From NCBI GenBank assembly GCA_036389275.1, contig DASVQE010000009.1, positions 30,568 to 94,567 of the forward strand: DNA of 64,000 nt, written 5' to 3'. A model generated the notes under the pieces. The model searched no databases and had not been told where the DNA came from. It saw nothing but the letters and a program-made list of their open reading frames with translations. The first letter of the stretch is position 1. The number at the start of each line of letters is the position of its first letter. Shown here one piece after another: positions 24,119 to 35,985 of this stretch. Both the position numbers and the translations under genes were made by a program. Source of the DNA: Thermoanaerobaculia bacterium (GTDB taxonomy: Bacteria; Acidobacteriota; Thermoanaerobaculia; Gp7-AA8).

Positions 24119-25516
24119 ATGCGCAAGTTCCTTCTGCTCCTGCTCGGTTTCGCAGCATTGCCGACGCTCGCTCAGAACGTCGACATCGAGTCGCTCTCCG
24201 GCCTGCAGTTCAACTTCGGCAATCCCGGCGCGCGGTCCCTCGGCATGGGCGGCGCGTTCCTCGGTCTCGCCGACGATGCTTCGGCCGCCGAAGCAAATCC
24301 GGCCGGCCTGACCATCCTCCGCAAGCCGGAAGTCTCCATCGAGGCGCGCAATTACCTCGAGCAGCAGCTCTTCACCACCAGCGGTACGTATCCCGACGTC
24401 GAGCGCACGCCGTTCACGCACTACAGCGACCGCGTGGTGGTCTCGTTCGCGAGCGCGGTCTATCCGTTCAAGAAATTCACCGTCGGCGCCTACTTTCACG
24501 AGCCGCTGAACAACGAAGGCAGCGGCGTGGTCGCGCCGCGCTTCGACGAGCTCACCGGCCGCCTCGAGACGGCGCTGCCGAATTTCTACCTGCCGGTCAC
24601 CGGCCAGAATCAGTTCGGCGATCCGGTCACGCAGGCGCAGTGCGAGGCGCTCCGTCACACGAACAACAATCCGTTCGCCTGCCTCGAGTTCCGCGTCAAT
24701 CCGTTCATTTCCGCGCTCGACGTGCGGCAGCGCACCTTCGGTCTCGCCGGCGCGTGGCAGATCCATCCGAAGTTCTCCGTCGGCGCGACGGTGCGCCATC
24801 AGCGGTTCCAGGAGGCGGCCTTCACCTTCCGCTTCACGCAGCAGTTTGACGCGGACGCGGTGATCGTGCAGGCGACAGCGAAGGAGAACGGCGCCGACGT
24901 CGATGTGATCGAAGAGAGCGACACCACGTTCGCGGCCGGCTTCAAGTGGTCGCCCACCGACAAGATCAGCGTCGGCGGCGTCTACAAGCAGGGTCCGGAG
25001 TTCGCCGCGCCGCTCTTCTTCGCGAATGCCGCCACGAACTTCGACTTCGTGCGCGCCGCGGAGACGAAGTTCCACATTCCCGACGTCGCCGGCGTCGGCG
25101 TGTCGGTGCGTCCGATCCCGGTGCTGACCGTCAACTTCGACGCGGTGCGCGTGACCTACTCGAATCTCGCCGACGACTTCGTCGCGTCCGTCGCCGACGT
25201 GCGCGAGCTCGACGAGCCATTCGGTGCTGACGACGTCCTGGAGCTGCACCTCGGCGCGGAGTATTTCTTCTCCACCAAGATCCCGTTCGCGCTGCGCGCC
25301 GGCTACTGGCGCGACCCGGCGCACGCCATCGAATGGCGCGGCCCGGTGAACCGCCCCGACTTCATCGCCGAGTCGCTGCTCTACCCGAAGGGCGAGACCC
25401 AGAACCACATCTCCGTCGGCGCCGGCTTCGCCTGGCCCCGTTTCCAGATCGACGCCGCGTACGACTCGTCAGAGCATTACAAGGTGGGGTCGATTTCGAT
25501 GGTGGCGCGGTTCTAG
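24119..25516 (+). CDS. OmpP1/FadL-family outer-membrane transporter
   Basis: Signal peptide, NPGARSLGMGGAFLGLADDASAAEANPAGL and C-terminal Phe. Confidence 0.88.
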   Translation: MRKFLLLLLGFAALPTLAQNVDIESLSGLQFNFGNPGARSLGMGGAFLGLADDASAAEANPAGLTILRKPEVSIEARNYLEQQLFTTSGTYPDVERTPFTHYSDRVVVSFASAVYPFKKFTVGAYFHEPLNNEGSGVVAPRFDELTGRLETALPNFYLPVTGQNQFGDPVTQAQCEALRHTNNNPFACLEFRVNPFISALDVRQRTFGLAGAWQIHPKFSVGATVRHQRFQEAAFTFRFTQQFDADAVIVQATAKENGADVDVIEESDTTFAAGFKWSPTDKISVGGVYKQGPEFAAPLFFANAATNFDFVRAAETKFHIPDVAGVGVSVRPIPVLTVNFDAVRVTYSNLADDFVASVADVRELDEPFGADDVLELHLGAEYFFSTKIPFALRAGYWRDPAHAIEWRGPVNRPDFIAESLLYPKGETQNHISVGAGFAWPRFQIDAAYDSSEHYKVGSISMVARF

Positions 25517-26169
25517 TCGCTGACGGCGTCGAGCGGCACGTCCAGCAGATCGAACTGCTGCCAGCCGCCGAAATCGTAGTGCCACCATTCGCTCGGAAAG
25601 ACTTCGAATCCGTTGCGGGTCATGACCTCGCGTAGCAATGCGCGATTGACGATCGCCTCGGCCGGCAGGTCGTTGAAGGCGTGGGCGGCGCGCGGCGTGA
25701 AGTCGTCGTAGCCGGTCGGCATCGCGAGCTCGTCGCCGGTTTTCAAATCGATCAGGGTGAGGTCGACCGCGGCGCCGCGGTTGTGGCGCGAGCCTTTCTT
25801 CGGATCGGCGACAAAGTCGGGATCGTGGATGGCGTCCCACATGGCCACGGTCACGCGATACGGGCGATAGCCGTCGAAGATCTTGATGCCGAGGCCGCGG
25901 GCGGCGAGCTCGCGCTGCACGTTCGCGAGTGCGGCGGCGGCGGGCGCGCGGAGAAACGCTTTCGCCGACGGATAGAGCGGGCGGTGCATGAAGTTGTTCG
26001 GCGTGGCGTAGCGGATGTCGAGCGGAATGCCGCGCGCGGCGAGGTCGACCAGCTCGTTCGACGCATCGGCGCGCACCGCGGCGCGGTACTCGCGCGCGTT
26101 CGCGACCTGCAGGCGCGAGCTGGCGCAGGCGACGAAGAGCAGCAGCGCGAAGTTGATCGCCCGTCTCAT
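25513..26169 (-). CDS. ddpX: D-alanyl-D-alanine dipeptidase (VanX/DdpX, M15D), lipoprotein
   Basis: LDIRYATPNNF, IFDGYRP, SRHNRGAAVDLT and SEWWHYD; lipobox FVAC. Confidence 0.92.
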   Translation of the reverse strand: MRRAINFALLLFVACASSRLQVANAREYRAAVRADASNELVDLAARGIPLDIRYATPNNFMHRPLYPSAKAFLRAPAAAALANVQRELAARGLGIKIFDGYRPYRVTVAMWDAIHDPDFVADPKKGSRHNRGAAVDLTLIDLKTGDELAMPTGYDDFTPRAAHAFNDLPAEAIVNRALLREVMTRNGFEVFPSEWWHYDFGGWQQFDLLDVPLDAVSD

Positions 26170-26191
26170 CTCTTCTACTGTAGCCCGTCAC

Positions 26192-27385
26192 ATGGAGCTT
26201 GATATTTTCTTTTCGATTTGCCAGACCGAGGTGCACGGCTACCTGCCGAGCGAAAAGGTGATGTTCGAGAACTTCTTCGAACAGGTCGAGCTCGCCGACG
26301 CGCTCGGCTTCGGCACTGCCTGGGTCGCGGAGAGTCATCTCTCGACGGAAGTGCAGAAGACCAATCCCGGGGCGGTCATCCCGCACTTTGTCGGCGAGAT
26401 CGGGCTCAACACCGACATCCTGCAGCTCGCCCATCGCGTCTTCGCGCGCACGAAGCGCATCGGCATCGGCTCGGCCATCATGAACATCCTCTGCAACGGC
26501 GGCCCGATCGCCGCGGCGGAGCGGATCAAGACCTTTCTCGCGCTGCACGGCCTCGACGAGAACGAGCGGCGCCTGCTCACCGTCGGCTTCGCCTCCGGGC
26601 GCTTCCCGTTCATCAACGTCCCGTACGGCATCGTCCCGCGCGATCCGGTCGAGGCGGCCGCGTGGCCGGTGGTGAAGAACAAGATCTTCGAGGAGGCGAC
26701 GGAGATTTTTCTCCGGCTGCTCAAAGGCGAAGTGCTCTCGTCGCGCGAGATCACGCCGCGCGCCCTGCGCCGCGCCGACTTCCGCACCGACGCCGACTGG
26801 CAGCGCGCCGTCGACGCATTCGGTCAACAAGTTGACGAGATTCCGCTGGCGCCGCGCTGGCGCTTCCCGAACCTGAAGATCATCCCGCAGGAGTCGCGCA
26901 TGGACCTGCTGCGCCTCTCCATCGGCTCGCACGATCCCGCCACGCAGATCTTCGCCAACACCATCCTGCCGGTGGGCGTGTTCAATCTCTCCATCACGCC
27001 GGGCGCCGAGATCGAGCAGACCAACGAGCGCATGCGCACGCACTACCATCCGGACGGCGGCGGCTGGCAGCGCCGCCTCATGCCGCGCACGGTGCTCGTC
27101 TTCATCAACGACGACCCGGCGCAGGCCCGCGAAGAAGCGCGCGACGCGCTCTCGAACTACTGGCGCGCCCTCGAAGGCACCCTCGACGAGGAAAAGGTGC
27201 GCCGCGCCACCGACAACGCCCTGGTCGGCGACGCCGCCGAGATCGCCGCCCAGGCCCGCGAGCGCTTCCACCCCGAAGACCGCCTGATGCTCTGGTTCGA
27301 CTTCAACAATCACGACTCAAAAAGAGTCATGAAAAACATGCGCGATTTTGTGGAACGGGTGATGCCTCAGATGCGCAGCTCGTAA
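26192..27385 (+). CDS. luciferase-like (LLM) flavin-dependent oxidoreductase
   Basis: ADALGFGTAWVAESH, RTKRIGIGSAI and GFASG; ATG at 26192. Confidence 0.88.
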   Translation: MELDIFFSICQTEVHGYLPSEKVMFENFFEQVELADALGFGTAWVAESHLSTEVQKTNPGAVIPHFVGEIGLNTDILQLAHRVFARTKRIGIGSAIMNILCNGGPIAAAERIKTFLALHGLDENERRLLTVGFASGRFPFINVPYGIVPRDPVEAAAWPVVKNKIFEEATEIFLRLLKGEVLSSREITPRALRRADFRTDADWQRAVDAFGQQVDEIPLAPRWRFPNLKIIPQESRMDLLRLSIGSHDPATQIFANTILPVGVFNLSITPGAEIEQTNERMRTHYHPDGGGWQRRLMPRTVLVFINDDPAQAREEARDALSNYWRALEGTLDEEKVRRATDNALVGDAAEIAAQARERFHPEDRLMLWFDFNNHDSKRVMKNMRDFVERVMPQMRSS

Positions 27386-29853
27386 ACGCCGCGGCCGTGC
27401 GTGGCCGCGCGCAGCAGCCGCCGGCTCGGGTGAATCTGCAGGTCGAACACCGGCGCGTCCGGCAGTCCGTTCGAGAGCGGCGTCCAGCTCGCGCCTGAGT
27501 CGGGCGAATGCCAGACGCCGATGTCCGCGCCGGCGTAGAGTTTCGCCGGATCGGCGCGGTCGACGACGATGGCGTTGTGCTCGACGTCGAGCAGGCTGTC
27601 TCCGCCGGCCGGTCCGCTGCGCTCTTCCCACGCCGTGCCGTCGTAGTGCCAGACGTGGCGGAAGTCGCCCATGCCGCCCATGGTGATGTACAGCGACTCG
27701 CCGGTGGCGTCGGCGGTGTCGATGGCGATGTCGCTGACCGGACCGACGACGCCGAGCGCGCCGCCCGCGGCCTCCTCGAGATGCGCCGCGTTCCACGCGC
27801 CGCCGCTCTTCTCGATGCGCAGCACTTCGCCTTTCGTCGTGCCGGCGAAGAGGCGCGTCGCGGTTGCGAAGGCGAGGCAGTAGATCTCGCCGGCGCTCCC
27901 GGTGGCGAGGCTTTCGGAGAACGTCGCGCCGAAATCGCGCGAGAAGAAGACGCTGCCGAGGACCGCCACCGCCACGAGCTCCGCCTCGGCCGGCGCCTGC
28001 TCGTTGCGCGGCAGGGCCGCGAGCGGATAGGTCATGAGGAAGAACTGGAAGTCGAGTCCGGCCGGGAACGTCGCGCCGCCGTTGGTCGAGCGCAGCACCT
28101 GTCCATTCGCCGACACGAGCACGCGCTTCGGATCGGCCCAGTTGACCAGGCAGTAGCCGCCGTCGCCGTCCATCACGTGATCCCATGCGGCCGTGCCGAG
28201 CGTGCGCGCGGAGCCGTTGTCCTGCAGGCCGCAGAACAGAATGTGCGGATCGCTCGGGTGCTGCGCGAGGAAATTCGTGCAGAGACAGGAGAGGCCGTCG
28301 TTGCGGCTGGCGAACGTGCCGCTTCCGCGCGGATCGCGGTTGAGAAACACGCCGCCGTCGGAGCCGCACCAGAGCGCGTTCGGATTCGCCGGCGTATGCG
28401 TGAGCACATGCACGTCGGCGTGCGCGTGCTCGCCGATCGACTTCGACGAAATCTTCCCCTTCGCCGTGATCTTGCAGCGGAAGATCGCCGCGCCTCGCGG
28501 CGTCGCGCTGCCGCCGGCGTAAATAATCGCTTCGTCCGACGGGTCGACGGCGATGGCGAGGTCGTAGTCACCCTGGCTGTTGCCGTGTTTGTCCGGCGGC
28601 AGGATGTTCGGCGGATTGGTGAGCGCCGACCAGGCATTCGTGGCGAGGTCGAGACGGAAGATGCCGTGCAGCGTGCCGTTGTTGCGCGCGACCAGCGCGA
28701 AGACGAACTTCGGCTCCGAGGCTTGCGCGGCGAGCGCGACCCGCCGCACGTCGGCAGCCGGAAAGCCGCTGCCGGCCGCGGCCCAGGTCGCGCCGTCGGA
28801 AGAGGAGACGACGCCGCCACTGCCCGCCGCGTAGAAACGCGTCGCGCCGCTGACGGTCGTGACGATGACGCTGGTGAAGATGCCTTTCCGCCGCCGCGTC
28901 CAGACGGGATCGCCGTTGGTGTCGAGCGTCCGCTCGTACAGGCCGTCCGTCGTCGCGGCGACGACATGCTCGCCGTCGCGCGGATCGACGGCGAGCGCGT
29001 AAAACGCTTTGCCGGCCAGCGTCGGCGAGCCGGCGTCGACGTCCTCGACGCGCCACGACTGGCCGCCGTCGGTGCTGCACACCGGGCCGATGCCGCGATA
29101 CGCCGGCAACGCCCGCACGATGCGTTTGTCGAAGAGGCCGTGCGTGTCGCCTTCGCCGGTGCCGACGTAGACGCGATCGGGATCGTCGGGAGCGATGGCG
29201 ATGGCGCCGCAGGCCAGGCTGGTGCTCGCGAAGTTGGTCGGGTCGATGTCGAAGGCGTCCATCAGCGCGCGCCACGTCACGCCGGCATCGTCGGAGCGGA
29301 AGACGCCGCCGTTCGCGCTCGCCGCGTAGATGCGCCGCCCGTCGCGCGCAATGGCGAGGCCGGAGACGCGTCCGGCCACCGCCGGATTGCCGAGGGCCTG
29401 TCCGTTCGTGACCACGGTCGGTCCGAGCGGCGTCCAGTTGTTCGCGCCCGGCACGACGGGACTCGGCATCGCCGCGCCGTCCATCGCCGTCGCTTCCGCG
29501 ACCACTGCGGCCGGCATCGCGCCGACCTTCCGCTGCTTGTATTCGCGGAGGCGGTCGAGCCAGACCGTCTCGTCCACCTGCGGCGCGTTCGCCACCGCTT
29601 CGAGCTCTTCCTCCGGATCGACGCGGCGCGTCTCCGTCACGCGCGTCACTTCGTCGCGCGGCGCGTCGGCCGTCGCCGCGGCGACGATCGCTCCGCCGTC
29701 GTCCGCGTCGATCGTCGTGGCCTGCGGCGCCGCGGCAATGGCGGTCGCGCGCGGCTCGAGACGCGCGTACGTCGCGCGCCGCTGCTCGAACAACCACTCC
29801 CGCGGTCCGCCGTCGCCGCGCTCCTCGTTGCCGCCCTCGACTTCGTCCGCCAT
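27367..29853 (-). CDS. BNR/Asp-box beta-propeller (glycosyl hydrolase/sialidase-like) protein
   Basis: WTPLGP, GRVSGLA, SDDAGVTW, STDGGQSW, HADVHVL and AATHGRGVYEL. Confidence 0.85.
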   Translation of the reverse strand: MADEVEGGNEERGDGGPREWLFEQRRATYARLEPRATAIAAAPQATTIDADDGGAIVAAATADAPRDEVTRVTETRRVDPEEELEAVANAPQVDETVWLDRLREYKQRKVGAMPAAVVAEATAMDGAAMPSPVVPGANNWTPLGPTVVTNGQALGNPAVAGRVSGLAIARDGRRIYAASANGGVFRSDDAGVTWRALMDAFDIDPTNFASTSLACGAIAIAPDDPDRVYVGTGEGDTHGLFDKRIVRALPAYRGIGPVCSTDGGQSWRVEDVDAGSPTLAGKAFYALAVDPRDGEHVVAATTDGLYERTLDTNGDPVWTRRRKGIFTSVIVTTVSGATRFYAAGSGGVVSSSDGATWAAAGSGFPAADVRRVALAAQASEPKFVFALVARNNGTLHGIFRLDLATNAWSALTNPPNILPPDKHGNSQGDYDLAIAVDPSDEAIIYAGGSATPRGAAIFRCKITAKGKISSKSIGEHAHADVHVLTHTPANPNALWCGSDGGVFLNRDPRGSGTFASRNDGLSCLCTNFLAQHPSDPHILFCGLQDNGSARTLGTAAWDHVMDGDGGYCLVNWADPKRVLVSANGQVLRSTNGGATFPAGLDFQFFLMTYPLAALPRNEQAPAEAELVAVAVLGSVFFSRDFGATFSESLATGSAGEIYCLAFATATRLFAGTTKGEVLRIEKSGGAWNAAHLEEAAGGALGVVGPVSDIAIDTADATGESLYITMGGMGDFRHVWHYDGTAWEERSGPAGGDSLLDVEHNAIVVDRADPAKLYAGADIGVWHSPDSGASWTPLSNGLPDAPVFDLQIHPSRRLLRAATHGRGVYELRI

Positions 29854-29903: not shown

Positions 29904-30978
29904 ATGACCACGCTCGACGAGCAACAGACCGCCTTCGACGAGAGCGCTGCGCCGAATTTTGCGCGCGTCATGCCGAACTGGCAGCCGCTGGTCGAGTACC
30001 GGCGCAACGGCGTGGCGGAGAACACCATTCACGGCGCGGTGTCGTGGGTGTCGGGCAAGAACCTCATCTACTCGTTCGGCGGGAACGTCGAGGTGTACGG
30101 GCGCTCGATGGTGAAGCCGCTGATGATGAAGGTGTTCACGCGCGAGTTCGCGCGCGCGCTCACCTCCGAGCAGCAGGCCATCTCCGTGGCCTCGCACAAC
30201 GGCGACACCGAGCACGTAGCCGTGGCGCGTTCGATCCTGCTCGAGGGCGAATGGGGTCTCATGCAGACGCCGCACGACGTGCCGCTCGTGCAGTTCGGCC
30301 GGCAGGTGCGCCGCCCGCGCCGCTGGTATCACTGCTGTTCCGGCGAGCACGCCGCCATCCTGCGCGGCTGCAAGCTCAAAGGGTGGCGCCGCGTCGGCTA
30401 CGTCTGGCCGCACCATCCGTTCTTCCAGACCTACCTGCGCTACATCCAGGACGTTCTCGGACCGGAGTGGAAGACCGGCACCATCGCCAAGGACGGCTGC
30501 GGATTGCCGACGGTATCGATGACGGTAACGGATCTCGCTAAATTGTTCGCTAATCTAGTGACGGAAAAGGATGATGATTGGATCTGGCCAGCCATGGTCG
30601 GCCATCCCGATCTCATCGGCGGCTTCAATCGCCTCGACTCCACCATCCTCAAGGCCTGCGGCGGCCGCGTGCTCGCCAAGGAAGGCGCCGACGGTCTCCT
30701 CGGCCTGGCCATCGAGCATCCCGAATATCCCGAGGGTCTCGGCGTGGTCGTGAAGATCGCCCACGGCTGGAATCCCCAGGCGACCTGGTACATCGCCCGC
30801 TACATCCTCGGCGTGCTCGGTTTCGAGTTCCGCAACCCGTACAAGCTGCGCCGGCAGAAGGCCTACATCGTCCCGGAGGTCATCCCGCCGAACCTGCGCG
30901 AGCGCATGGCCGCCATCGTGCCGTGGGACTCCTGGGATCCCGACATCGACCGCTGGGAGTTCGATCCGGAGGAGTTCA

Positions 30979-30992
<14 letters not shown>
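29904..30992 (+). CDS. type-II/Rhizobium etli class L-asparaginase-like amidohydrolase (atypical active site)
   Basis: RSMVKP, ASHNG, HCCSGEH (canonical HNCSGKH), DGCGLP and AKEGADG. Confidence 0.82.
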
Positions 30993-34705
<3,713 letters not shown>

Positions 34706-34713
34706 TCGCCGTT

Positions 34714-35154
34714 ATGCGAGCTCGCGTCGTCGCCGGAGGCGCGATCCTCCTCGCCTTAGCCTGGTGGCTCTTCGGCTTCACTACATACCGCGAAGGCCCA
34801 TTCACAACGACCCTCTATCGCCGTTGGGGCCGCGTCACTCGCATCGATATGTCCGCAAATGATGCCCGCCAAATCACGCACGAACGCATTCTCTTCAAAT
34901 GGTCTGACCCCTACGAGCCCGGCGACCCGACCACCTCCTGTGCCGCAATCCCATCCGAGGTCTGGCAAGACCGGAACCGCGACGGCAAGTGGGACACCTG
35001 GCTATTTCGCACCAGCCCAAACGCCCACGGCGACTGTTCCATCGAATACCGAGTCGACCTGACCAACGACGGCCACCCAGATTGGCAGTTCACCAGCGCA
35101 TTCGGAAAATACGAAGAAGCGAGAGCTGGAATCGTTCGTCGCAGAGGCTACTGA
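34714..35154 (+). CDS. hypothetical anchored/exported protein with two DxNxDGxxD Ca-binding-like loops
   Basis: N-terminal hydrophobic segment; DRNRDGKWD and DLTNDGHPD. Confidence 0.6.
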   Translation: MRARVVAGGAILLALAWWLFGFTTYREGPFTTTLYRRWGRVTRIDMSANDARQITHERILFKWSDPYEPGDPTTSCAAIPSEVWQDRNRDGKWDTWLFRTSPNAHGDCSIEYRVDLTNDGHPDWQFTSAFGKYEEARAGIVRRRGY

Positions 35155-35304: not shown

Positions 35305-35985
35305 ATGTGTTGGGCCAGAAACCTACACGCGGCCGTGGTGACATTCATCCTGCTGCTGGCGACGGGGTGCATCAATACGGGTGCGGCTCGGTACACTGCG
35401 AAATCCACGAATATTGACGGGTTACTCCTCTCGTCGGCAGTAACGGTGGTTCCTGCCGGGCAGTCGCGATCACAACTGTGGAGTGAGTCTGTTGCCTCCG
35501 CCGCGTATGACCTGAGTGCGCCTGTGTCTGTTCAGATCGCCTGTAACGGGACGACTTCGGGTGAGTGGGCCACACGAGCCGCCAGGTATCAGCTCCGTGT
35601 CACGCCGGATCCCGAGCTCCACTTTCGTAAGCTCTTTCTGGACGAAATCTATCGATATTGGAGAGACCAGCCGCGCTCATATCTTGAGTCTTACCAGTAT
35701 CTGCCGGCCGACAAAAGCGTTCTCGAAAAGAATGCCCGCTACGTTCTCTATATAAAGCCCGGTCACGAGCGGCCGGGCGCGACATATCTGTTCTACGCGA
35801 ACAATCATGTGTTTGAGTTGGAATTCAAGTCCGTCGCCGGCGACGGCTCCGGGCCGCTCAGTTCTTTCATTGCCGAGCATGTCGCGTTTCGTGAAGACGG
35901 CGAAACGATCGATCAGATCTACTTCGAGCCACAATATTCGCCTCTCAAACTGATGGCGCTGATCGAGTCCGGCGCCCTGCGGTAG
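35305..35985 (+). CDS. hypothetical lipoprotein
   Basis: Lipobox LLATG-C after a hydrophobic stretch. Confidence 0.6.
   Translation: MCWARNLHAAVVTFILLLATGCINTGAARYTAKSTNIDGLLLSSAVTVVPAGQSRSQLWSESVASAAYDLSAPVSVQIACNGTTSGEWATRAARYQLRVTPDPELHFRKLFLDEIYRYWRDQPRSYLESYQYLPADKSVLEKNARYVLYIKPGHERPGATYLFYANNHVFELEFKSVAGDGSGPLSSFIAEHVAFREDGETIDQIYFEPQYSPLKLMALIESGALR

What the first reader, a model, noticed from the sequence alone, without database searches (positions are those of the whole stretch)
29904..30992. Asparaginase-II-like enzyme with a remodelled metal site leads the aminophenol operon
Seen: the Ser-Lys motifs are retained (RSMVK, ASH, AKEG) and DGC is kept, but canonical NCSGKH reads CCSGEH (30333-30350). 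Established: in R. etli-type asparaginase the zinc is bound by the Cys and Lys of CSGK plus the DGC Cys. Inference: Lys-to-Glu and Asn-to-Cys indicate a different substrate. It could be an amidase or lactamase that releases 2-aminophenol from an N-acyl or cyclic carbamate precursor, supplying the missing entry step.
Basis: partly seen in the sequence, partly recalled or inferred. Interest (0 to 1): 0.62.

Follow-up and report, generated by a model that had tools for sequence, protein, structure and literature searches.

The report
Asparaginase-like hydrolase in kynurenine-to-aminophenol pathway
This gene is not an ordinary asparaginase: it belongs to a sharply separate, highly conserved branch that always travels with a flavin monooxygenase and usually with 2-aminophenol ring-opening genes, and it most likely splits an oxidised form of the tryptophan product kynurenine into aspartate and 2-aminophenol, a breakdown route I did not find described.

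Summary
Window 29904-30992 (+) encodes a 362-aa PF06089 (class 3 asparaginase) protein. It keeps both Ser-Lys tandems, Arg47, Asp187 and both metal cysteines, but reads CCSGEH (30333-30350) where canonical enzymes, including a paralog in the same genome, read NCSGKH.

Lys-to-Glu does not determine the function: orthologs with Lys sit in the same operon, and this position changed at least 8 times inside the clade. In ReAV the metal holds the amino-acid end of the substrate, not the leaving group.

What defines the clade is its company:
- In 151 Acidobacteriota genomes, orthologs occur in exactly 7.
- The same 7 are the only ones with the luciferase-like monooxygenase (LLM) ortholog (two copies damaged); 6 of them are the only ones with AmnB.
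- All 7 have tryptophan 2,3-dioxygenase (TDO); the 6 with AmnB have no kynureninase-like gene.
- Other phyla show compact TDO-SDR-LLM-AsnII-AmnC-AmnB-AmnA::RidA-KynB operons, and one contig carries only TDO-LLM-AsnII::KynB.

Best reading (about 0.55): the LLM performs a Baeyer-Villiger oxidation of (N-formyl)kynurenine, and this enzyme hydrolyses the resulting beta-aspartyl aminophenol conjugate to L-aspartate plus 2-aminophenol. No activity has been tested.

The parts
29904..30992 (+). AsnII-like hydrolase (PF06089), 362 aa. It keeps the catalytic set R67/S68/K71, S97, C145, H149, Y166, D197/C199, K259. It has E148 in place of ReAV K138 and C144 in place of N134. Proposed activity: beta-aspartyl-aminophenol hydrolase.
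30333..30350 (+). CCSGEH motif (canonical NCSGKH).
26192..27385 (+). Divergent luciferase-like flavin monooxygenase (LLM), the obligate partner of the AsnII-like gene. Proposed Baeyer-Villiger oxygenase acting on (N-formyl)kynurenine.
30979..32403 (+). Aldehyde dehydrogenase. Its best solved relatives are 2-aminomuconate 6-semialdehyde dehydrogenases (AmnC/AMSDH). It overlaps the AsnII stop by 14 nt.
32388..33317 (+). AmnB-like catalytic beta subunit of 2-aminophenol 1,6-dioxygenase.
33314..34705 (+). AmnA-like alpha subunit fused to a RidA-family deaminase domain (2-aminomuconate deaminase-like). The fusion is conserved across phyla.
27367..29853 (-). BNR-repeat / glycosylhydrolase-like gene inserted between LLM and AsnII. 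The insertion is lineage-specific and not part of the pathway.
24119..25516 (+). FadL/TodX-family outer-membrane channel, syntenic upstream of the cluster in most close relatives.
25513..26169 (-). Secreted Peptidase_M15 (VanX-like dipeptidase), conserved between the FadL and LLM genes in relatives.

Best explanation
The gene encodes a serine hydrolase of the class 3 asparaginase fold that has been recruited into a kynureninase-independent route of tryptophan/kynurenine catabolism.

Proposed sequence of steps (all inferred):
1. TDO, with KynB where present, makes N-formylkynurenine and kynurenine.
2. The partner luciferase-like flavin monooxygenase attacks the aryl ketone with a flavin peroxide (Baeyer-Villiger). 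The aminophenyl group migrates, giving the 4-(2-aminophenyl) ester of L-aspartate. With a free amine this ester should rearrange spontaneously (O-to-N acyl shift) to N4-(2-hydroxyphenyl)-L-asparagine.
3. The AsnII-like enzyme binds the aspartyl end as ReAV binds L-Asn. Arg67 and the Cys145/Cys199/Glu148 site hold the alpha-carboxylate and alpha-amino groups. Ser68, activated by Lys71, forms the beta-aspartyl acyl-enzyme and expels 2-aminophenol (or 2-formamidophenol, which KynB would then deformylate). Water then releases L-aspartate.
4. AmnBA opens the ring, AmnC oxidises the semialdehyde, and the RidA domain deaminates 2-aminomuconate.

Shown: family membership, residue conservation, gene order, co-occurrence, and absence of kynureninase. 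Inferred: both chemical steps and the substrates.
For: (1) The acyl-binding and catalytic residues of ReAV are all kept: E17, R47, S48, K51, S80, C135, H139, Y156, D187, G188, C189, T193, K263, A266, D267. The literature assigns R47 and the metal to the alpha-carboxylate and alpha-amino groups of L-Asn, and S48 to a beta-acyl-enzyme. The substrate should therefore still be a beta-aspartyl compound.

(2) It is a sharply separate ortholog group. Orthologs are 65-90% identical across Acidobacteriota, Myxococcota, Planctomycetota and Sericytochromatia. Within Acidobacteriota hits are bimodal, at least 72% or at most 34% identity. The genome also holds a canonical paralog.

(3) Co-occurrence in 151 Acidobacteriota genomes:
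- AsnII orthologs occur in 7.
- LLM orthologs occur in the same 7 (one is a 66-aa remnant, one is split across two frames) and in 0 of 144 others (Fisher p 3e-12).
- AmnB occurs in 6 of the 7 and in 0 of 144 others (p 5e-10).
- A Sericytochromatia genome whose AsnII gene stands alone still has the LLM on another contig.

(4) Gene order:
- LLM lies within the flank in 52 of 58 close relatives with enough upstream sequence, and ALDH lies downstream in 62 of 66.
- Compact operon TDO-SDR-LLM-AsnII-ALDH-AmnB-AmnA::RidA-KynB in L087.
- TDO, SDR and LLM also lie upstream of AsnII in L006 and G115.

(5) The minimal module TDO-LLM-AsnII::KynB, with no amn genes on the 17.5-kb locus, is seen in L089. 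SDR-LLM-AsnII is seen in L090 for relatives only 41-47% identical.

(6) All 7 carriers have TDO, but only 1 of 7 has any kynureninase-like gene, and that one has a decayed cluster. Among TDO-positive non-carriers the figure is 40 of 47 (p 4e-4). None of 6 further carriers has kynureninase above the cut-off.

(7) The downstream genes are confidently 2-aminophenol enzymes: AmnB E 7.5e-132 to 3vsg_B, AmnA 5.7e-56, AMSDH 1e-137, and a RidA domain related to 2-aminomuconate deaminase 6izh.

(8) Precedents exist. Luciferase-family FMN enzymes perform Baeyer-Villiger oxidations (PMC4631483, PMC12239570). The 4-hydroxyacetophenone pathway goes aryl ketone, aryl ester, phenol, then ring cleavage (PMC3727088).
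Against: - No activity of either enzyme is known.
- The LLM is a very divergent family member (Pfam 41.8 bits; almost nothing in PDB by sequence). Foldseek puts it among luciferases and other FMN monooxygenases, with no type II Baeyer-Villiger enzyme among the 50 matches listed.
- This genome lacks the operon-type KynB, having only a 24-28% identical cyclase-family gene elsewhere. Its TDO is unlinked and divergent.
- An outer-membrane channel gene (FadL here, other types elsewhere) hints at an imported hydrophobic substrate that need not be tryptophan-derived.
- The conserved SDR of other phyla has no assigned step.
- The deeper clade node has weak tree support, 0.275.
Confidence: 0.55

Rival explanations
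1. One reading: an amidase or lactamase for exogenous N-acyl aminophenols or cyclic carbamates (2-acetamidophenol, benzoxazolinone and similar). In this view the Lys-to-Glu / Asn-to-Cys metal-site change is the specificity switch.
For: The gene is linked to amnBA-type genes. FadL- or phenol-type outer-membrane channels next to several clusters suggest imported aromatics. Position 134 has lost the canonical Asn throughout the clade.
Against: Lys-containing orthologs occupy the same operon. Lys/Glu toggles at least 8 times. The alpha-amino-acid anchoring residues are fully kept, which argues for an aspartyl acyl group rather than acetyl, formyl or a carbamate. TDO and KynB lie in the operon, the LLM partnership is obligate, and kynureninase is missing; all point to tryptophan.
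Confidence: 0.1
2. It is an alternative kynurenine formamidase (aryl-formamide amidase). It would convert N-formylkynurenine to kynurenine, especially in genomes like this one that lack the operon's KynB.
For: The gene travels with TDO. This genome has no close KynB. N-formylkynurenine carries an amino-acid end that the conserved anchor could bind.
Against: KynB is present in the same operon in L006, L087, L096, L023 and others. It is even fused to the AsnII-like domain in L089, and two isofunctional enzymes are not expected to be fused. The conserved Ser68-to-anchor geometry fits a carbonyl two atoms from C-alpha, not the distant formamide. This reading leaves no enzyme to turn kynurenine into 2-aminophenol.
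Confidence: 0.1
3. The Baeyer-Villiger step has the opposite regiochemistry (alkyl migration). It would give O-anthraniloyl-L-serine, which this enzyme would hydrolyse to anthranilate plus serine.
For: It uses the same gene pair and the same co-occurrence data. It would explain modules without amn genes, such as L089.
Against: Anthranilate is not a substrate for the tightly linked AmnBA/AmnC/RidA set. The electron-rich aminophenyl group is the expected migrating group (established chemistry). The acyl group would be anthraniloyl, which does not fit the retained aspartyl-type anchor.
Confidence: 0.05
4. It acts later in the pathway, as an amidase or deaminase on a ring-cleavage product (for example 2-aminomuconate, as the amidase-type CnbZ does, or a picolinamide-like side product).
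For: It is translationally coupled to the semialdehyde dehydrogenase (14-nt overlap). Amidase-type 2-aminomuconate deaminases exist (general knowledge, not checked here).
Against: A RidA-type deaminase is already fused to AmnA. The AsnII-LLM pair persists with TDO and KynB where no amn genes are nearby. In G107 the AsnII-ALDH pair, LLM and amnBA lie apart but all persist.
Confidence: 0.05
5. It is a genuine L-asparaginase (or close variant) that merely sits next to the operon.
For: It has the PF06089 fold and a complete catalytic apparatus. ReAV K138A keeps about 1.5% of kcat/KM, so loss of Lys is not lethal to activity.
Against: A canonical paralog already exists in the genome. Co-occurrence with the LLM is perfect and cross-phylum synteny is conserved. 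Sequence conservation is extreme and separate from the canonical enzymes.
Confidence: 0.03

Closest known systems
Class 3 L-asparaginases ReAV and ReAIV of Rhizobium etli (PF06089; PDB 7os3, 9g66, 8cly)
   Same: Same fold: Foldseek E about 4e-18, TM 0.65-0.73. It has the same Ser-Lys tandems, Arg47, Asp187, oxyanion-hole Ala, and the two metal cysteines. The same double-displacement mechanism through a beta-aspartyl-Ser acyl-enzyme is expected.
   Different: - Only 22-27% identical.
- Lys138 is replaced by Glu here (Lys, Asn, Gln or His in relatives).
- Asn134 is lost throughout the clade.
- It has clade-specific DWIW (225-228) and His287, and an invariant Arg-rich loop (130-143).
- It is tied to an LLM and to kynurenine/aminophenol genes rather than to nitrogen assimilation.
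- The leaving group is inferred to be an aminophenol rather than ammonia.
2-Aminophenol meta-cleavage clusters (amnBACD..., cnbCaCb, nbz) of Pseudomonas, Comamonas and Burkholderia
   Same: AmnB, AmnA, AmnC and a RidA-type 2-aminomuconate deaminase are all present and closely related to the solved proteins.
   Different: - The known clusters receive 2-aminophenol from nitrobenzene or aminophenol and contain no PF06089 or LLM gene (general knowledge).
- Here AmnA is fused to the deaminase.
- The classical lower pathway appears absent in 8 carrier genomes: no 4-oxalocrotonate decarboxylase at E 1e-10 and no 4-hydroxy-2-oxovalerate aldolase above the cut-off.
4-Hydroxyacetophenone pathway of Pseudomonas fluorescens ACB (HAPMO, aryl-ester esterase, hydroquinone dioxygenase)
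   Same: Same logic: aryl ketone, then Baeyer-Villiger aryl ester, then hydrolysis to a phenol, then ring-cleaving dioxygenase (PMC3727088).
   Different: Different enzyme families at every step. It uses an FAD/NADPH type I BVMO rather than a luciferase-like enzyme, and an ordinary esterase rather than the asparaginase fold. The substrate is not an amino acid.
Canonical bacterial kynurenine pathways (TDO, KynB, then kynureninase to anthranilate, or KMO/kynureninase/HAO/ACMSD)
   Same: It shares TDO and KynB at the top, and AMSDH plus a deaminase at the bottom.
   Different: Carriers have no kynureninase. The side chain would leave as aspartate instead of alanine. The ring would enter as 2-aminophenol, without the 3-hydroxyanthranilate dioxygenase and ACMS decarboxylase steps.

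Membership tests
PF06089 / class 3 L-asparaginase superfamily (fold level) | Significant match to the PF06089 profile and the ReAV/ReAIV fold | tested here: met
   Pfam E 6.9e-49, 167 bits against a cut-off of 25. The AF2 model (pLDDT 84.8) has ReAV and ReAIV as top Foldseek hits, TM 0.65-0.73; the next hits are glutaminases and class A beta-lactamases at E about 1e-3.
Class 3 L-asparaginase (functional family, ReAV type) | Two Ser-Lys tandems plus Arg47 ('Pattern II') | tested here: met
   R67, S68, K71, S97 and K259 are aligned to ReAV and invariant in 42 orthologs.
Class 3 L-asparaginase (functional family, ReAV type) | Zn site Cys135 / Lys138 / Cys189 with His139, Tyr156 and Asp187 ('Pattern I', reported as strictly conserved) | tested here: not met
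   Both Cys, plus His, Tyr and Asp, are kept, but Lys138 is Glu148. In the clade the position reads E 21, K 19, N/H/Q 5, and three members lack both Cys. Outside the clade Lys is present in 46 of 49 (PMC11024299).
Class 3 L-asparaginase (functional family, ReAV type) | Asn preceding the metal Cys (NCSGKH) | tested here: not met
   Cys144 here. The clade reads P/C/T/S/A, with N in only 3 of 45. Outside the clade N is present in 32 of 49.
Class 3 L-asparaginase (functional family, ReAV type) | Hydrolysis of L-asparagine as the physiological reaction | not testable with these tools
   Context argues against it: a canonical paralog in the genome and an obligate LLM partner.
amn-type 2-aminophenol meta-cleavage cluster (for the operon the gene heads) | Heterodimeric LigB-type 2-aminophenol 1,6-dioxygenase (AmnB catalytic, AmnA non-catalytic) | tested here: met
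   3vsg_B E 7.5e-132; 7txy_A E 5.7e-56.
amn-type 2-aminophenol meta-cleavage cluster (for the operon the gene heads) | 2-Aminomuconate semialdehyde dehydrogenase and 2-aminomuconate deaminase | tested here: met
   The best PDB hits of the ALDH are AMSDHs (1e-137). The RidA domain hits 6izh, a 2-aminomuconate deaminase (8.5e-24).
amn-type 2-aminophenol meta-cleavage cluster (for the operon the gene heads) | Lower pathway AmnE/F/G/H (4-oxalocrotonate decarboxylase, hydratase, aldolase, acetaldehyde dehydrogenase) | tested here: not met
   No TIGR03218 hit at E 1e-10 and no TIGR03217 hit above the cut-off in 8 carrier genomes, including this one. The hydratase and acetaldehyde dehydrogenase were not searched.
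Type II (luciferase-family, FMN) Baeyer-Villiger monooxygenase (for the partner LLM) | Luciferase-like TIM-barrel fold | tested here: met
   PF00296 at 41.8 bits. The model (pLDDT 84.3) gives RslO1, luciferases and SsuD as top Foldseek hits.
Type II (luciferase-family, FMN) Baeyer-Villiger monooxygenase (for the partner LLM) | Demonstrated ketone-to-ester oxygenation with FMNH2 from a partner reductase | not testable with these tools
   No close characterised relative. There is no dedicated flavin reductase in this window; a Fre-like gene lies near the cluster in L088 only.

The most novel reading that the evidence does not exclude
A third, kynureninase-independent exit from kynurenine exists and is widespread in uncultured Acidobacteriota, Myxococcota, Planctomycetota and other lineages. 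A luciferase-like flavoenzyme Baeyer-Villiger-oxidises (N-formyl)kynurenine. A recruited class 3 asparaginase homolog cuts the product into L-aspartate and 2-aminophenol. Within this clade the otherwise invariant Cys/Lys/Cys metal anchor has become evolutionarily free (Lys, Glu, Asn, Gln or His; both Cys lost in one branch). This would mean that metal-mediated substrate anchoring is dispensable once an aryl leaving group adds binding energy; in the Glu forms the carboxylate may bind the substrate ammonium directly.
Probability: 0.5. Interest if true: 0.85.

Novelty: new variant of a known kind. Interest (0 to 1): 0.74.

Why it matters
Tryptophan degradation through kynurenine is textbook metabolism with two known exits, both of which need the PLP enzyme kynureninase. 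If this reading is right, there is a third exit that salvages the side chain as aspartate and sends the ring through 2-aminophenol. It would also give a natural, non-xenobiotic role to the 'nitrobenzene-type' aminophenol dioxygenases.

For enzymology, it would be the first non-asparaginase function in the class 3 asparaginase fold. It would also provide a natural experiment on the debated role of the fold's zinc site.

For annotation, thousands of proteins now named 'asparaginase' would need renaming: 1776 hits to this query, of which the 120 best listed are 64-90% identical to it.

Tried and rejected
- NCBIfam has no model for the protein.
- The sigma-70 promoter and terminator scan of 25.4-35.4 kb was at the chance level and says nothing about a promoter after the BNR insertion.
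- The plus-strand ORF 25681-26202 looked conserved. It is the shadow of a minus-strand M15 peptidase gene, 25513-26169.
- A sequence search of the LLM against PDB gave one marginal hit. Foldseek listed no type II Baeyer-Villiger enzyme among its 50 matches, so the fold neither supports nor excludes that chemistry.
- Model coordinates are not exposed to scripts, so I could not measure whether W226/W228/H287 or the Arg-rich loop line the leaving-group pocket.
- The specificity-position scan returned only 5 columns: D225, W226, W228, H287 and Q318.
- The deep node uniting all LLM-linked clades has weak support, 0.275. Only the main subfamily is solid, at 0.925.
- Four literature searches for the proposed pathway found nothing relevant. 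The library lacks most subscription journals, so this is absence of evidence only.
- ORFs 34714-35154 and 35305-35985 after the operon have no family match and no homolog in the 88 other loci held at that point (L001-L088), so I left them out of the system.
Full report
**1. What is there.**
Window 29904-30992 (+) is an intact 362-codon ORF. It matches Pfam PF06089 (Asparaginase_II) at E 6.9e-49 and matches no NCBIfam model. It aligns with the solved Rhizobium etli class 3 asparaginases ReAIV (8cly) and ReAV (7os3).
- RSMVK corresponds to R47-S48...K51.
- ASH corresponds to S80.
- AKEGADG corresponds to K263/A266/D267.
- DGC corresponds to D187-G188-C189.
- CCSGEH (nt 30333-30350) sits where the canonical enzymes read NCSGKH.

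The genome carries a second, canonical PF06089 gene (337 bits) that reads NNCSGKH. An AlphaFold model (pLDDT 84.8, pTM 0.85) finds only ReAV and ReAIV as close structures (TM 0.65-0.73). Glutaminases and class A beta-lactamases follow far behind.

**2. The operon.**
The gene overlaps an aldehyde dehydrogenase by 14 nt. The ALDH's best solved relatives are 2-aminomuconate-6-semialdehyde dehydrogenases (1e-137). Next come an AmnB-type catalytic subunit of 2-aminophenol 1,6-dioxygenase (7.5e-132 to 3vsg_B) and an AmnA-type subunit (5.7e-56). The AmnA-type subunit is fused to a RidA domain related to 2-aminomuconate deaminase. The identity of the downstream genes as 2-aminophenol enzymes is therefore well founded.

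The gene 'leads' this run only because a minus-strand BNR-repeat gene (27367-29853) has been inserted. In most of 80 closely related species the preceding gene is a luciferase-like monooxygenase (LLM) that overlaps AsnII (L023: 8821-10008 and 10001-11089). The ortholog of that LLM is in the window at 26192-27385. Before it lie a VanX-like secreted peptidase and a FadL/TodX channel.

**3. Is the metal-site change the point? No.**
According to the literature, C135/K138/C189 bind zinc in ReAV. The metal does not take part in catalysis; it anchors the alpha-amino and alpha-carboxylate groups of L-Asn. R47 holds the alpha-carboxylate. S48 forms a beta-acyl-enzyme. K138A keeps about 1.5% of kcat/KM. 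These 'Pattern I' residues are reported as strictly conserved.

- In this protein everything on the acyl (aspartyl) side is retained; only K138 and N134 differ.
- Among the 120 best homologs (64-90% identical), about 12 keep Lys (PCSGKH or PCAGKH). The residue before the Cys is C, P, T, S or G.
- Two Lys-type orthologs sit in the same operon, one of them in its fullest form (L087, L088).
- On a tree of 94 family representatives the LLM-linked clade reads E 21, K 19, N/H/Q 5, with at least 8 changes. One branch has lost both cysteines (NSSG[HN]H with DGDG). Outside the clade 46 of 49 keep Lys.

The third metal ligand is thus unusually free in this clade, which is interesting in itself. But Lys-to-Glu neither defines the clade nor correlates with gene context.

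**4. What does define the clade: its partners.**
Orthologs are 65-90% identical across Acidobacteriota, Myxococcota, Planctomycetota and Sericytochromatia. Results for one set of 151 Acidobacteriota genomes:

| Gene | Genomes with it |
|---|---|
| AsnII ortholog (at least 72% identity) | 7; every other PF06089 hit is 28-34% identical |
| LLM ortholog | the same 7, 0 of 144 others; one is a 66-aa remnant and one is split across two frames (Fisher p 3e-12) |
| AmnB ortholog | 6 of the 7, 0 of 144 others (p 5e-10) |

Among close relatives, LLM is present in 52 of 58 loci with enough upstream flank, and ALDH in 62 of 66. A Sericytochromatia genome in which the AsnII gene stands alone still has the LLM on another contig.

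**5. The link to tryptophan.**
- Outside the Thermoanaerobaculia the cluster gains tryptophan 2,3-dioxygenase (TDO), a short-chain dehydrogenase (SDR) and a cyclase-family kynurenine formamidase (KynB). L087 reads TDO-SDR-LLM-AsnII-ALDH-AmnB-AmnA::RidA-KynB. L006 (Planctomycetota) and G115 (another acidobacterial family) also carry TDO, SDR and LLM upstream. L003 (Myxococcota) and L088 carry the core with SDR.
- At least 13 of the 80 close relatives have KynB after the RidA fusion.
- Relatives only 41-47% identical to the query still sit next to the LLM. In one of them (P0132, contig L089) the AsnII-like domain is fused to KynB, and the contig reads TDO-LLM-AsnII::KynB with no amn genes on the 17.5-kb locus. 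The conserved core is therefore TDO + LLM + AsnII + KynB, and the hydrolase belongs to the upper, pre-ring-cleavage part.
- All 7 acidobacterial carriers have TDO. Only one has any kynureninase-like gene: G056, whose AmnB is gone and whose LLM is a 66-aa remnant. Among TDO-positive non-carriers 40 of 47 have one, often adjacent to TDO (p 4e-4).
- Six further carriers, two of them further acidobacterial genomes and the rest reached through loci from other lineages, have no kynureninase above the cut-off.

**6. Mechanism proposed (inference).**
Kynurenine is an aryl ketone. Luciferase-family flavoenzymes use a nucleophilic flavin peroxide on carbonyls, and some are proven Baeyer-Villiger oxygenases (PMC4631483, PMC12239570). 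Aryl migration would give the 4-(2-aminophenyl) ester of L-aspartate. By established chemistry, the free ortho-amine should convert this to N4-(2-hydroxyphenyl)-L-asparagine. Either compound is a beta-aspartyl substrate. That is exactly what an asparaginase scaffold with an intact aspartyl anchor and Ser nucleophile would cleave, giving L-aspartate and 2-aminophenol for AmnBA.

If the LLM acts on N-formylkynurenine instead, the order would be LLM, AsnII, KynB. That order would make the AsnII::KynB fusion a fusion of consecutive steps.

The logic copies the 4-hydroxyacetophenone pathway: ketone, aryl ester, phenol, dioxygenase (PMC3727088). I wrote this hypothesis down, before consulting earlier notes of the scan.

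**7. Weak points.**
- Nothing is assayed.
- The LLM is very divergent, and no type II Baeyer-Villiger enzyme is among the 50 Foldseek matches listed.
- This genome lacks the operon's KynB, and its TDO is unlinked.
- Outer-membrane channel genes beside several clusters may mean an imported aromatic substrate.
- The SDR has no assigned role.
- The leaving-group pocket could not be examined. Clade-specific D225-W226-x-W228, H287 and the invariant Arg-rich loop 130-143 (low model confidence) are candidates only.

**8. Comparison with the known, and novelty.**
At fold level the protein is a member of PF06089. It fails two defining sequence features of the characterised class 3 asparaginases (K138, N134), and its context is incompatible with a housekeeping asparaginase. 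The downstream genes are bona fide amn-type enzymes. However, the classical lower meta-pathway (4-oxalocrotonate decarboxylase, 4-hydroxy-2-oxovalerate aldolase) is missing from 8 carrier genomes.

Four full-text searches found no description of a kynurenine-to-aminophenol route or of a PF06089 enzyme in tryptophan catabolism.

Earlier AI notes of this scan on other genomes reach the same pathway hypothesis. They are not independent evidence. I re-derived the gene-context and co-occurrence facts behind it here.

**9. Verdict.**
The enzyme is best described as a new functional variant of the class 3 asparaginase fold. It is most likely a beta-aspartyl-aminophenol hydrolase in an undescribed kynureninase-independent tryptophan pathway. 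My confidence is about 0.55 for the specific chemistry and about 0.75 for the broader statement, namely a non-asparaginase hydrolase working with the LLM upstream of AmnBA on a tryptophan-derived substrate. The Lys-to-Glu change is a lineage-level variation at a metal site that has become evolutionarily free in this clade; it is not the specificity switch.

Noticed in passing
window 27367-29853 (-): An 828-aa BNR-repeat / F510_1955-like glycosylhydrolase gene sits on the opposite strand exactly between the LLM and AsnII genes. Its stop overlaps the LLM stop by 19 nt, and its start lies 50 nt from the AsnII start. The same insertion is seen only in L009 and L011; in other relatives LLM and AsnII overlap. 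How the AsnII operon is transcribed after this insertion is open.
   Followed up: partly
window 25513-26169 (-): A 218-aa Peptidase_M15 (VanX-like D-Ala-D-Ala dipeptidase) with an N-terminal signal-like sequence. It is conserved at DNA level between the FadL and LLM genes in L023 and L010. Its role next to the pathway is unknown; it could be a periplasmic dipeptidase feeding the pathway.
   Followed up: partly
L089:8001-9497 (protein P0132): A natural fusion of an AsnII-like domain (41% identical to the query, PCSGKH) with a cyclase-family kynurenine formamidase domain. It lies in a TDO-LLM-AsnII::KynB module with no amn genes on the 17.5-kb locus.
   Followed up: partly
proteins P0130, P0154, P0157: A branch inside the LLM-linked clade has lost both metal cysteines (NSSGNH/NSSGHH and DGDGLPT) while keeping the Ser-Lys tandems and Arg47. 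The metal site seems dispensable there.
   Followed up: no
P0001 residues 123-143 (window about 30270-30332): The loop PHDVPLVQFGRQVRRPRRWYH is almost invariant in 42 orthologs (four to five Arg), yet it is the only internal segment the model predicts with pLDDT below 50. It may be a lid, a dimer-interface element or a partner-binding element.
   Followed up: no
G000 and 7 other carrier genomes: No 4-oxalocrotonate decarboxylase and no 4-hydroxy-2-oxovalerate aldolase above the cut-off were found. The product of the RidA step is therefore not processed by the classical meta-cleavage lower pathway; a 2-oxoadipate/glutarate-type continuation is possible.
   Followed up: partly
G056:C43:216185-217680 and G070:C32:80605-81702: Decay of the system. 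G056 keeps an intact AsnII gene but only a 66-aa LLM remnant and no AmnB, and it is the only carrier with a kynureninase-like gene. In G070 the LLM is split across two frames, either a frameshift or an assembly error.
   Followed up: no
G000:C42:32480-33181 (-) and L005:9089-9997: The genome's only TDO-like gene (233 aa, divergent) lies next to a ribBA-like riboflavin gene. In the Sericytochromatia locus the lone AsnII gene follows ribF (FAD synthetase). This is a possible flavin-supply link or a coincidence.
   Followed up: no
window 34714-35154 and 35305-35985 (+): Two ORFs after the operon, where relatives carry KynB, have no Pfam or NCBIfam match and no homolog in the 88 other loci held at that point.
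   Followed up: partly
L006:12276-14002; L088:15861-16901: Outer-membrane channel genes of different families are embedded in or next to the cluster in different phyla: a porin O/P-like gene plus a lipoprotein in the Planctomycetota locus, a MetA-pathway phenol-degradation-type gene in L088, and FadL here. This suggests the substrate is taken up from outside.
   Followed up: no
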